Below are positions 22,266-23,075 of a stretch of DNA of 32,000 nucleotides, piece after piece. The DNA lies in assembly GCA_030668875.1 (NCBI GenBank), contig DAOVER010000023.1, positions 24,173-56,172 of the forward strand, in the 5' to 3' direction. Source of the stretch: Candidatus Heimdallarchaeota archaeon (GTDB taxonomy: Archaea > Asgardarchaeota > Heimdallarchaeia > Heimdallarchaeales > Heimdallarchaeaceae). The notes below the pieces were generated by a model that saw only the letters and a list, made by a program, of their open reading frames with translations, was not told the origin of the DNA and did no database searches. The position numbers and the translations under genes were made by a program. The first letter of the stretch is position 1. Each line of letters begins with the position of its first letter.

Positions 22266-23075
22266 GTGTCAATAGATGATTATTTAGATACTCTGCTTTC
22301 TGGCAGTTCTGATCCATCTAGTAAAGCGATAAAGAAATTGACAAAACTTTTAGAAAGTTTTGGGGCCATAATGGTCCAATCCACAGAGAGGATGGAGGAT
22401 TACATTAACACACTAGACGCGCGCATTTCCGTAATTGAGAGAAATATGGTTGTGCCTTCTTCAAGTCCTGTTGTAGGTACATCATCGTCTAGTCCAGCAC
22501 CTGCAAGAGCGTCTACTCCTGCAGCTTCTGGAGCACCTAATCTTTCAGGAGCACCTAATCTTTCAGGAGCACCAAATCTTAGTAGTGCCCCTTCTTCAGG
22601 AGGATCTCCTGCACCAGCGCCTAGTGGTGGCGGAGGTGGAGGTATATCAAATGCAGATTTAATGAAAGTAGCGGCAGGCTTAACAAAAACTCCTGAACAA
22701 CAGTCAAAAGAAATGCTTGATGCATCAACATTCAGTCCGTCTGGAGTAAGTGTTTCAGCTATTCAAGATGTTAAAGCAGGATTAACTAAAGTAGACCAAG
22801 ATGAACATAGAAGAGAAAGAGCTGCAGCATCTGGTGGATCAGATTCAATGCCCGCTTCTATGGCACTAAACATGGAAGTCAAGGATGCCCTGGCAAAGAG
22901 AAAATCGCGCTCTAAATCAGATGAAGATAGTGATGATGAAGATGATTTTGCTCCAACTCAAACTGCTCCTGCTGCACCTAAGCGTTCAACTAAACAGATG
23001 AAAGAAGCTCTACAAGGAGAATTAAGAAGCGCCTTCAGTAGTTTACTTGAAAGTGATACACAAGAAGAAGAGTAA
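22266..23075 (+). CDS. Putative WAVE/WASH-like actin regulator: BRK1-like coiled coil, low-complexity linker, 2x WH2-like, C-like helix, acidic stretch, terminal helix (269 aa)
   Basis: GTG start (MSIDDYLDTLL). The CDS itself is well supported (own TATA box and terminator); the functional call is inferred from motifs listed under findings. Confidence 0.65.
   Translation: MSIDDYLDTLLSGSSDPSSKAIKKLTKLLESFGAIMVQSTERMEDYINTLDARISVIERNMVVPSSSPVVGTSSSSPAPARASTPAASGAPNLSGAPNLSGAPNLSSAPSSGGSPAPAPSGGGGGGISNADLMKVAAGLTKTPEQQSKEMLDASTFSPSGVSVSAIQDVKAGLTKVDQDEHRRERAAASGGSDSMPASMALNMEVKDALAKRKSRSKSDEDSDDEDDFAPTQTAPAAPKRSTKQMKEALQGELRSAFSSLLESDTQEEE
22530..22583 (+). repeat. 3x 18-bp tandem repeat encoding (GAPNLS)3
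   Basis: ggagcacctaatctttca twice exactly, then ggagcaccaaatcttagt. Confidence 0.95.

What the first reader, a model, noticed from the sequence alone, without database searches (positions are those of the whole stretch)
22266..22448. N-terminal coiled coil aligns without gaps to BRK1/HSPC300 (WAVE-complex subunit)
Seen: IKKLTKLLESFGAIMVQSTERMEDYINTLDARISVIERNM (22329-22448). Against human BRK1 as I recall it ([40 protein letters not shown]) it gives 11 of 40 identities without gaps plus many conservative matches; upstream DYLDTL echoes BRK1 EYIEII. INTLDARISVI also resembles the recalled CCDC53 segment LNILDAKLSSI. Known: BRK1, CCDC53 and the WAVE/WASH N-terminal helices are regarded as related parts of the WAVE/WASH complex helical bundles, and free BRK1 homotrimerises. 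Inference: one gene may combine the BRK1-like bundle helix and VCA, an ancestral homo-oligomer before subunit specialisation.
Basis: partly seen in the sequence, partly recalled or inferred. Interest (0 to 1): 0.82.

Follow-up and report, generated by a model that had tools for sequence, protein, structure and literature searches.

The report
Trimerising helix of Asgard actin-factor candidate
The start of this Heimdall-archaeal gene encodes a helix that most likely bundles three copies of the protein side by side; its likeness to the eukaryotic WAVE-complex subunit BRK1 is real on paper, but shared coiled-coil rules explain it and common descent is not shown.

Summary
The peptide is there as described, and the recalled BRK1 segment is exact (3p8c_E 29-68). 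The 11/40 gapless identity is correct. BRK1/CCDC53 homology is not supported. Profile-profile comparison gives 11-22% probability, in three different heptad registers. The signal does not grow with family diversity: the heptad-aware shuffle p goes from 0.013 to 0.047. Unrelated coiled coils outrank BRK1 in a PDB profile search. The one Pfam CCDC53 hit above threshold drops to 17 bits for the helix alone. The score of 43 comes from two islands: a poorly conserved IKK..L.SF stretch (28) and R-I-x-x-I-E (17). The second is the known trimerisation motif of parallel three-stranded coiled coils. It occurs in 37/37 family members. A homotrimer model passes its controls (0.67 versus 0.01), parallel and in register. 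The domain is therefore best read as a BRK1-like-acting, but not demonstrably BRK1-related, trimerisation module. It heads a proline-rich protein with WH2-like, basic-helix and acidic motifs. The helix, linker and tail design occurs in 144 of 399 Asgard genomes. This scan has noted the family before on other genomes. Actin binding is untested.

The parts
22233..22241 (+). TATA-box-like TTTTTATAT, inside a 26-base block (TGAGGAATAnCATAGACTTTTTATAT) that is kept in 11 of the 12 orthologous loci (the twelfth contig ends short of it); the likely promoter
   Evidence: Upstream comparison of 12 orthologous loci. The promoter role is inferred from archaeal promoter architecture, not tested.
22257..23075 (+). 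Coding sequence. The start is either TTG 22257 (reading M-I-H-V-S-I-D-D) or GTG 22266 (reading M-S-I-D-D; 269 aa). The stop is TAA at 23073-23075. The ATG at 22212 is unlikely because it would put the TATA block inside the gene.
   Evidence: Orthologues carry ATG, GTG or TTG at the 22257 position and GTG or TTG at 22266. Distant homologues begin directly at MS[ILD]... Residue numbers in this report count from 22266.
22272..22301 (+). Short N-terminal helix, residues 3-12 (IDDYLDTLLS). Nearly invariant. In the trimer model it packs on the bundle.
   Evidence: AF2 helix 3-12. Invariant S2, D4, Y6, L7, D8, L10, L11. Residues 7, 11 and 14 lie in the modelled interface.
22317..22448 (+). Long helix, residues 18-61: the coiled coil.
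   Evidence: AF2 helix 18-61 with pLDDT 87-92. Mean column identity is 80% against 55% for the whole protein. The homotrimer model scores ipSAE 0.67 against a best control of 0.01, with same-residue contacts at 22, 25, 29, 43, 47, 50, 54 and 57.
22422..22439 (+). R53-I-S-V-I-E58: the R-hxxhE trimerisation motif.
   Evidence: R53 and E58 are invariant. The motif is found in 37/37 family members and in 16/22 distant N-domains. An E58-R53' interchain contact is modelled. The motif is defined in PMC3653964.
22449..22643 (+). Disordered Pro/Ala/Ser/Gly-rich linker with three tandem G/S-A-P-N-L-S repeats; length varies between orthologues.
   Evidence: pLDDT below 50 for residues 65-127. Alignment A1 shows indels and conserved APNL units.
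22644..22706 (+). WH2-like motif 1: a short helix (residues 129-140) followed by L-T-K-T-P-E.
   Evidence: AF2 helix 129-140. Conserved L139, K141, P143. Distant homologues have L-K-K-V, L-K-S-V or L-K-K-A here. The Pfam WH2 model does not match.
22746..22811 (+). WH2-like motif 2: a helix (residues 163-172) followed by G-L-T-K-V-D-x-D-E-H.
   Evidence: AF2 helix 163-172. Invariant L173, K175, H181. No Pfam WH2 match.
22854..22919 (+). Amphipathic helix ending in a basic run (ALNMEVKDALAKRKSRSKS). It resembles a WASP C region and the VASP FAB motif.
   Evidence: AF2 helix 197-218. Invariant E204, K206, R212. The resemblance to VASP FAB 259-278 (PMC10340426) is by eye only.
22920..22949 (+). 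Acidic patch D-E-D-S-D-D-E-D-D-F, ending in a nearly invariant Phe where WASP-family A regions have Trp.
   Evidence: F228 is at least 90% conserved. That WASP A regions carry Trp is from my own knowledge.
22986..23063 (+). C-terminal helix, residues 241-266 (S-T-K-Q-M-K-E-A-L-Q-x-E-L-R-x-A-F-S-S-L-L). The best-conserved segment across the wider Asgard family.
   Evidence: AF2 helix 242-266. Run of invariant columns 241-264. The M-K-x-x-L-Q-x-x-L-[KR]-x-A-F pattern is kept in the Kariarchaeaceae protein P0189 and in homologues from other families of the same order.

Best explanation
Residues 1-61 form a parallel, in-register, probably three-stranded homo-oligomerisation coiled coil. A short capping helix (residues 3-12) is followed by a 44-residue heptad helix. 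Its C-terminal part carries the R-I-x-x-I-E trimerisation motif.

Its proposed job is to hold three copies of the downstream arm together. That arm comprises a flexible proline-rich linker, two WH2-like motifs, a basic amphipathic helix, an acidic patch and a conserved end helix. Multimerisation would raise avidity for the ligand, as it does for eukaryotic actin-assembly factors (the Ena/VASP tetramer, clustered WASP-family proteins). The most plausible ligand is Asgard actin.

The resemblance to BRK1 is analogy. Both are parallel trimeric coiled coils with the same heptad phase and the same trimerisation motif.

Status of each step:
- Shown: the sequence, its conservation, the motif, and the failure of homology tests.
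- Model-supported: a parallel homo-oligomer.
- Inferred: the trimer as the actual stoichiometry, avidity as the function, and actin as the ligand.
For: The helix is predicted at high confidence (residues 18-61, pLDDT about 90).

The three-copy model scores ipSAE 0.67 (runs 0.67, 0.58, 0.67) against a best control of 0.01. The runs agree in at least 90% of contacts and the partner pLDDT is at least 76. In the tool's calibration the mark was reached by 20 of 30 proteins solved as pairs of one chain and by 1 of 23 solved as single chains. That calibration used two copies and the tool's own alignments, so these counts hold only roughly here. Contacts are same-residue (50-50, 54-54, 57-57, 47-47, 43-43, 22-22, 25-25, 29-29), which means parallel and in register. 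The E58-R53' pair is among them.

R53-I-S-V-I-E58 fits the R-hxxhE motif that specifies parallel three-stranded coiled coils (PMC3653964). The motif is present in 37/37 family members and 16/22 distant N-domains. R53 and E58 are invariant.

The N-domain is the most conserved long segment: 80% mean column identity against 55% overall.

The BRK1 score splits into two islands: 28 from the first 12 residues, -2 from the middle 19, and 17 from R-IxxIE.

The same head, proline-rich linker and basic end helix recur in 144/399 genomes of the phylum. They occur as small proteins, and after Arf/Rag-like GTPase domains. This fits a portable oligomerisation-plus-tether module.
Against: No experiment exists. 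A structure model tends to lay amphipathic helices side by side, and only the three-copy state was modelled, so a dimer or tetramer is not excluded. [quoted passage not shown]

Actin binding is untested. The Pfam WH2 model does not match this protein, any of its 36 aligned relatives, or the distant forms with L-K-K-V.

Gene neighbourhoods show no actin-related genes.

A residual similarity to BRK1 beyond heptad phase (p about 0.007-0.05) is not fully explained away. True remote homology cannot be excluded.
Confidence: 0.58

Rival explanations
1. True remote homology. The N-terminal helix descends from the same ancestor as the BRK1/CCDC53 (and WAVE/WASH N-terminal) bundle helices. The protein would then be an archaeal relative of WASP-family nucleation-promoting factors that homotrimerises instead of joining a five-subunit complex.
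For: The gapless alignment to human BRK1 is exact as reported and is the top-scoring 40-mer in the genome. Heptad-aware nulls are exceeded at p about 0.007 for the single sequence and 0.013 for the profile. Pfam CCDC53 is the first-ranked family for P0055 residues 1-70 and is hit by 6/37 members at E<10. The [DE]-Y-[IL]-[DE]-x-[IL] short helix upstream resembles BRK1 E-Y-I-E-x-I. The downstream motifs follow the V-V-C-A order. An ARPC4-like gene (34 bits, above cut-off) and one actin-related protein are present in the genome.
Against: hhalign probability is only 11%, 18% and 22%. The three alignments use three registers: 13 columns; 34 columns with a 7-residue gap; and 23 columns shifted by one heptad. 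With a more diverse N-domain profile (Neff 4.8) the heptad-aware p worsens to 7/150.

A PDB profile search lists influenza B HA2, VP35, KaiC and designed coils, but not BRK1 among the 60 sequences shown (E 1.3 or better; 65 matched at E<=10).

P0055's above-threshold CCDC53 score (26.9 bits) falls to 17.1 bits for the helix alone. That is level with Hemagglutinin, ABC_tran_CTD and BLOC1_2. The window's own N-domain has no CCDC53 hit. Distant homologues hit other coiled-coil families instead.

Two of the 11 identities, K23 and S31, are not conserved within the family (most members have M and N there). BRK1 invariants W16, N37 and N51-E52-K53 are unmatched. No CYFIP, NCKAP1, WASH-WAHD or ARPC2 match is found in a 92%-complete genome.
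Confidence: 0.1
2. A hetero-oligomer docking helix. The N-domain mainly pairs with other coiled-coil proteins, such as the paralogous helix/proline-rich/end-helix proteins or a GTPase-linked form. This would parallel how BRK1 leaves its homotrimer to join WAVE and ABI.
For: Many relatives carry two or three genes with this N-domain. The own genome has a weak paralogue-like ORF with the same layout at G000:C64:8498-9412 (E 0.0018). BRK1 and CCDC53 undergo a homo-to-hetero trimer transition (PMC8047104).
Against: No hetero-complex was modelled or tested. The homotrimer model already passes with a wide margin. The own-genome paralogue match is weak.
Confidence: 0.12
3. An oligomerising tether unrelated to actin. 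The coiled coil multimerises a flexible arm whose end helices dock on some other target, for example membranes, ESCRT or trafficking machinery linked to Arf/Rag-like GTPases.
For: In another family of the phylum the same head and end helix follow an Arf/Gtr1-RagA-like GTPase domain. WH2 membership fails by Pfam. There are no actin genes nearby. Earlier scan notes report that the tail fails WH2 tests.
Against: The Heimdall and related long forms add one to three L-K-K-V/L-T-K-V-type motifs after short helices, and a basic helix plus acidic patch in V-C-A order. That arrangement is hard to explain without actin. The genome encodes two close actins (449 and 434 bits).
Confidence: 0.2

Closest known systems
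BRK1/HSPC300 (WAVE regulatory complex subunit; free form is a parallel homotrimer; 3P8C chain E, 3PP5)
   Same: A long helix of about 45-60 residues in the same heptad phase. Both have an [RQK]-h-x-x-h-E layer near the C-terminal end and a short acidic/aromatic segment upstream. The parallel three-stranded bundle is solved for BRK1 (PMC3119050) and modelled here. Identity is 11/40 without gaps.
   Different: There is no statistically supported relatedness. BRK1 is a stand-alone protein of about 75 residues forming one continuous helix. Here a Gly/Ser/Pro loop breaks the helix after residue 12, and 200 more residues follow. BRK1's invariant W16, N37 and N-E-K are absent. No WAVE, ABI, CYFIP or NCKAP partners are detectable.
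CCDC53/WASHC3 (Pfam PF10152), the BRK1 counterpart in the WASH complex
   Same: An N-terminal trimeric coiled coil followed by a low-complexity linker. It is the first-ranked Pfam family for one divergent member (P0055 residues 22-66 against profile 5-49).
   Different: The window's protein gives no hit. The helix alone scores 17.1 bits against a 24.6-bit threshold. Only 6/37 members match at E<10, and none of the distant homologues do.
Generic R-hxxhE parallel trimeric coiled coils (coronin-1 C-terminus, GCN4-pII-type and cortexillin variants)
   Same: The exact R-I-x-x-I-E motif, with the Arg(g)-Glu(e') interchain pair modelled (PMC3653964). In coronin the trimer likewise multimerises an actin-binding protein.
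   Different: Those domains are short (about 30 residues) and C-terminal. This one is N-terminal, about 60 residues long, has a capping helix, and belongs to an Asgard-specific family.
Ena/VASP (proline-rich region, GAB, FAB, oligomerising coiled coil)
   Same: A proline-rich stretch, then a WH2-like G-actin-type motif, then an M-E-x-x-x-A-L-A-[KR]-R-[KR] basic helix like FAB 259-278, plus an oligomerisation helix (PMC10340426).
   Different: The oligomerisation domain lies at the opposite end and is a left-handed heptad trimer model, not a right-handed tetramer. There is no EVH1 domain. The motif likeness is by eye only. Earlier scan notes reached the same comparison on other genomes.
WASP-family VCA proteins (WAVE, WASH)
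   Same: The order is an N-terminal helical assembly domain, a proline-rich region, V motifs, a C-like helix and an acidic tail.
   Different: The Pfam WH2 model does not match. The acidic patch ends in Phe, not Trp. An extra conserved end helix follows. Of the Arp2/3 parts sought, only an ARPC4-like gene and one actin-related protein are found, and no ARPC2; ARPC1, ARPC3 and ARPC5 were not searched.

Membership tests
BRK1/HSPC300 | Significant sequence or profile similarity to BRK1 orthologues | tested here: not met
   hhalign gives 11.5% (A2 vs A3), 18.3% (A6 vs A5) and 22.2% (diverse N-domain vs A5), each in a different register. The PDB profile search does not list BRK1 among the 60 sequences shown (E 1.3 or better) while unrelated coils score E 0.006. 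Heptad-aware shuffles reach the real score in 2/150 and 7/150 trials.
BRK1/HSPC300 | Family-invariant residues (D15, W16, R19, E20, N37, F39, N51, E52, K53, Y63, E65 in alignment A5) | tested here: not met
N37, N51, E52, K53 and Y63 face E30, E44, D45, Y46 and V56, and W16 has no counterpart.
BRK1/HSPC300 | Parallel three-stranded coiled coil | tested here: inconclusive
   The model supports a parallel in-register trimer (ipSAE 0.67 vs 0.01) and the R-hxxhE motif is present. Other stoichiometries were not modelled and nothing was measured.
BRK1/HSPC300 | Small stand-alone subunit with WAVE, ABI, CYFIP and NCKAP partners | tested here: not met
   The helix is fused to about 200 further residues. 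There are no FragX_IP (CYFIP) or Nckap1 matches in the 92%-complete genome. Absence in an incomplete genome is not proof.
CCDC53/WASHC3 (PF10152) | Score above the Pfam gathering threshold (24.6 bits) | tested here: not met
   The window protein has no hit at E<=10. The best member, P0055, scores 26.9 bits whole but 17.1 bits for the helix alone. P0183, which has the same helix, scores 15.5 bits. No WASH_WAHD match in the genome.
R-hxxhE parallel trimeric coiled coil | Arg(g)-h(a)-x-x-h(d)-Glu(e) motif within a heptad helix | tested here: met
   R53-I54-S55-V56-I57-E58. The motif is in 37/37 members and R53 and E58 are invariant. The definition comes from PMC3653964.
R-hxxhE parallel trimeric coiled coil | Trimeric, parallel assembly in solution | not testable with these tools
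   Only a structure model is available. SEC-MALS, AUC or crystallography is needed.
WH2 domain (PF02205) | Match to the WH2 profile | tested here: not met
   No hit in the protein or in its 36 aligned relatives at E<=10, nor in the distant homologues. A six-frame search of four genomes does not match at this locus. The motif has G-L-T-K-[TV], two residues shorter than G-x-x-L-K-K-[TV]; that canonical spacing is from my own knowledge.
WASP-family nucleation-promoting factor | Acidic tail with a conserved Trp, and an Arp2/3 complex to act on | tested here: inconclusive
   The acidic patch ends in a conserved Phe. The genome has an ARPC4-like gene (34.3 bits) and one actin-related protein but no ARPC2 match.

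The most novel reading that the evidence does not exclude
The N-terminal helix is a genuine archaeal relative of the BRK1/CCDC53/WAVE/WASH bundle helices. This Heimdallarchaeaceae protein (trimerising helix, proline-rich region, two V motifs, C helix, acidic patch) would then represent the pre-eukaryotic, homo-oligomeric form of WASP-family actin nucleation-promoting factors, later split into separate complex subunits.
Probability: 0.1. Interest if true: 0.9.

Novelty: new variant of a known kind. Interest (0 to 1): 0.5.

Why it matters
The papers I could search name only profilins and gelsolins as Asgard actin regulators (PMC12050087, PMC9433394). None describes an Asgard protein that joins an oligomerisation helix, a proline-rich arm and WH2-like, basic and acidic motifs.

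If the N-domain is a trimeriser, the protein is a ready-made multivalent scaffold of the kind eukaryotes use to nucleate or elongate actin filaments. That makes the question 'did actin-assembly factors exist before eukaryotes?' directly testable with one small soluble protein and the genome's own actins.

It also matters as a caution. A clean-looking 11/40 gapless match between coiled coils, even with matching heptad breaks, can arise from shared heptad phase plus a shared trimerisation motif. It should not be read as descent from BRK1.

Tried and rejected
- Pfam on the whole protein and on the N-domain: nothing for the window's own sequence.
- PDB search with the whole protein: only low-complexity noise.
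- Protein-language-model atlas. The whole protein returned only unnamed archaeal clusters below 0.9. The N-domain alone returned no usable hit.
- CCDC53. The apparent above-threshold hit of P0055 was rejected after splitting the protein. No CCDC53 sequences could be fetched, so no CCDC53 profile-profile test was run.
- The BRK1 sets obtained were limited to metazoa and dictyostelids. Plant, fungal and other protist sequences were not reached.
- ATG 22212 as the start: rejected, because the stretch carries the conserved TATA block.
- Gene neighbourhoods of three distant homologues: no conserved or actin-related neighbours.
- Fold search with the monomer model was not run. Mean pLDDT is 61, and isolated helices would match any long helix.
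WH2-like motifs against the genome's actin, dimer or tetramer states, and hetero-bundles were therefore not modelled.
- No RNA-read check of the start site was attempted.
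Full report
THE OBSERVATION

The window is a low-GC contig (28-40% GC in 1-kb windows). It belongs to a 3.2-Mb genome that is 92% complete. The target protein's relatives are named Heimdallarchaeaceae or Heimdallarchaeota by NCBI.

An ORF runs from 22212 to 23075 on the + strand. The gapless alignment gives 11/40 identities and a BLOSUM62 score of 43. The observation as written is therefore correct. Only the recalled CCDC53 fragment could not be verified.

GENE MODEL

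Eleven of the 12 orthologous loci share an almost invariant 26-base block ending in TTTTTATAT (window 22233-22241); the twelfth contig ends before it. After 15 less conserved bases comes a position that reads ATG, GTG or TTG (22257 here). Nine bases further on is a GTG or TTG (22266). More distant homologues start directly at M-S-[ILD]. The ATG at 22212 would place the TATA-like block inside the gene, so it is unlikely to be the start. I number residues from 22266, giving 269 aa.

THE FAMILY

A word-indexed search found 61 homologues, and all those that carry a name are Heimdall-lineage. An exhaustive profile search of 1.84 billion representatives found only 16 hits. Among them were distant full-length forms from Kariarchaeaceae and other lineages.

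The alignment and an AlphaFold2 model give this layout:
- a short helix, residues 3-12;
- a long helix, residues 18-61 (pLDDT about 90);
- a disordered Pro/Ala/Ser linker with A-P-N-L repeats;
- two short helices, each followed by G-L-T-K-[TV];
- an amphipathic helix ending in K-R-K-S-R;
- an acidic patch ending in a conserved Phe;
- a very conserved end helix.

The N-domain is the best-conserved long block, at 80% mean column identity against 55% overall.

IS THE N-DOMAIN RELATED TO BRK1 OR CCDC53?

(a) Pfam has no BRK1 model. BRK1 proteins carry no BRK1-specific precomputed Pfam family.

(b) A profile of the N-domain searched against all PDB sequences puts influenza B HA2 first (E 0.006). 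Then come filovirus VP35, KaiC and designed coils. BRK1 is not among the 60 sequences listed, of 65 matched at E<=10.

(c) hhalign against a metazoan BRK1 alignment gives 11.5% probability over 13 columns. Against metazoan plus dictyostelid BRK1 it gives 18.3% over 34 columns, with a seven-residue gap. Three comparisons produced three registers.

(d) I ran coiled-coil-aware controls by shuffling alignment columns.
- Free shuffles never reach the real hhalign score (0/150).
- Shuffles within the same heptad phase reach it in 2/150 trials for the narrower profile and 7/150 for the diverse one.
- At single-sequence level, 37/5000 heptad-preserving shuffles reach a score of 43.

Most of the signal is therefore heptad periodicity. 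A small residue remains, and it does not grow when more diverse sequences are added. True homology usually behaves the other way.

(e) In this genome's six-frame ORFs the target is the best of 1.0 million windows against BRK1. The runner-up scores 42 and lies in an 86-residue ORF with no evident heptad pattern.

(f) Pfam CCDC53 is hit by 6/37 members. One of them, P0055, scores 26.9 bits, above the 24.6-bit cut-off. P0183 has the identical helix but scores only 15.5 bits. P0055 residues 1-70 alone score 17.1 bits, level with Hemagglutinin, ABC_tran_CTD and BLOC1_2. The window's own N-domain has no CCDC53 hit. Distant homologues hit assorted other coiled-coil families.

(g) BRK1's invariant residues (W16, N37, N51-E52-K53, Y63) are not matched. 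Two of the 11 identities, K23 and S31, are not conserved within the Heimdall family, where most members have M and N.

(h) The genome shows no match to CYFIP, NCKAP1 or the WASH WAHD domain.

Conclusion: relatedness to BRK1/CCDC53 is not supported, although it cannot be excluded.

WHAT EXPLAINS THE RESEMBLANCE

The score of 43 splits as follows:
- 28 from the first 12 residues (I-K-K-h-x-x-h-L-x-S-F);
- -2 from the middle 19 residues;
- 17 from R-I-x-x-I-E.

The last island is the R-hxxhE trimerisation motif, Arg(g)-h(a)-x-x-h(d)-Glu(e). It specifies parallel three-stranded coiled coils in unrelated proteins such as coronin-1 (PMC3653964). It occurs in 37/37 family members, with R53 and E58 invariant, and in 16/22 distant N-domains. 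BRK1 carries [KRQ]-hxxhE twice. The Dictyostelium Brk1 paper itself likens its ring of interchain bonds to coronin (PMC3119050). The two proteins therefore share a structural rule that recurs by convergence.

OLIGOMER MODEL

Three copies of the N-domain, using alignment A6, gave ipSAE scores of 0.67, 0.58 and 0.67. The best of three controls scored 0.01. The runs agree in at least 90% of contacts and the partner pLDDT is at least 76. In the tool's calibration the mark was reached by 20 of 30 proteins solved as pairs of one chain and by 1 of 23 solved as single chains. The tool warns that these counts hold only roughly for my own alignment and for three copies.

Contacts join the same residue in different chains (22, 25, 29, 43, 47, 50, 54, 57) and include E58 with R53'. 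The model is thus parallel, in register, and uses the trimerisation motif as expected. This supports assembly but does not show it. Dimer and tetramer states were not modelled.

WIDER CONTEXT

A six-frame search of 399 genomes of the phylum found matches in 144.
- Full-length forms occur in the window's own family (25/29 genomes) and in families f2, f3, f4 and f7.
- Elsewhere the N-domain heads small proteins of 120-200 residues. These have a proline-rich linker and an end helix of the type M-x-x-E-L-K-x-x-F-x-K-R-R.
- In the largest sampled family (58/135 genomes) the same helix and end motif follow an Arf/Gtr1-RagA-like GTPase domain.
- Long forms in the same order carry one to three clearer L-K-K-V, L-K-S-V or L-K-K-A motifs.

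The coiled coil is therefore an old, portable Asgard module rather than something peculiar to a WAVE-like gene.

This scan's earlier notes describe the same helix, polyproline and basic-tail family on other genomes, and also compare it with Ena/VASP. I reached the family independently. Those notes are leads, not evidence.

THE LINK TO ACTIN

This link is inferred, not shown. In its favour:
- the motif order resembles V-V-C-A of WASP-family proteins, or PRR-GAB-FAB of Ena/VASP (PMC10340426);
- the genome encodes two close actins, one actin-related protein and an ARPC4-like protein.

Against it:
- the Pfam WH2 model matches neither this protein, its relatives, nor the locus in four genomes;
- the acidic patch has Phe, not Trp;
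- ARPC2 and a Pfam-detectable profilin are not found;
- the neighbours are unrelated: a threonine-aldolase-type lyase upstream and a beta-CASP nuclease downstream here, and varied genes elsewhere.

MECHANISM PROPOSED

The N-domain forms a parallel trimer (model and motif). The trimer presents three flexible arms (inferred). Each arm carries several short amphipathic, basic motifs that bind actin monomers or filaments (inferred from pattern only). Avidity and local concentration would then promote filament nucleation, elongation or bundling, as in oligomeric eukaryotic factors (inferred).

The rivals are true BRK1/CCDC53 homology, a hetero-bundle docking role, and a tether unrelated to actin. 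I rate them 0.10, 0.12 and 0.20.

NOVELTY

Full-text searches found no paper that links Asgard archaea with CCDC53, WH2-type nucleation factors or WASP/WAVE-like proteins. The WH2-like motifs reported so far sit inside Asgard gelsolins. A 2024 review lists only profilin and gelsolin.

A coiled-coil trimeriser is a known kind of domain. Its use at the head of this undescribed Asgard family is a new variant of the oligomerised actin-factor design. The BRK1 reading itself should be downgraded to an analogy.

Noticed in passing
G000:C34:89822-90127 (locus L004): A 171-residue ORF matches Pfam ARPC4 (Arp2/3 subunit p20) at 34.3 bits, above the 22.2-bit cut-off, over profile positions 60-163. No ARPC2 match was found in the same genome.
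   Followed up: partly
G000:C64:8498-9412 (+): A 305-residue ORF with the same layout as the target: an N-terminal coiled coil (weak match to the N-domain profile, E 0.0018), a proline/threonine-rich stretch of about 200 residues, and an end helix A-E-L-L-K-A-L-K-K-L. It is a possible paralogue or hetero-bundle partner.
   Followed up: partly
L018:2-1183 (+) and L019 (genomes G237, G205; another family of the phylum): Proteins of about 420 residues in which an Arf/Gtr1-RagA-like small GTPase domain is followed by the same coiled-coil domain (with R-[LM]-R-A-I-E), a short linker and an end helix L-N-E-L-K-x-L-F-x-K-[KR]-R. Matched in 58 of 135 genomes of that family.
   Followed up: partly
window 22216-22241 and 12 orthologous loci (L006-L017): A 26-base block, TGAGGAATAnCATAGACTTTTTATAT, is almost invariant upstream of the gene across the genus. 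That is far more conserved than the following 15 bases. It is probably a BRE/TATA promoter plus a possible regulator site.
   Followed up: partly
P0189 (Kariarchaeaceae, 452 aa; locus L039:6083-7441): A distant homologue that duplicates an M-Q-E-L-K-N-A-F-S-G-G-G-D-Q-S-H-L unit and adds a long Lys/Glu/Pro-rich tail ending in a second L-K-G-A-F motif. An Arf-like GTPase gene lies 3 kb downstream.
   Followed up: no
window 23162-25309 (+): A metallo-beta-lactamase/beta-CASP nuclease with an unannotated N-terminal extension of about 320 residues that matches no Pfam family.
   Followed up: no
window 18643-20181 (+): A class II aminoacyl-tRNA synthetase core preceded by the tRNA_bind_4 domain. From my own knowledge this layout resembles the rare methanogen-type seryl-tRNA synthetase.
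   Followed up: no
window 12477-16796 (+): A 1439-residue ORF, the largest in the window. It was not examined.
   Followed up: no
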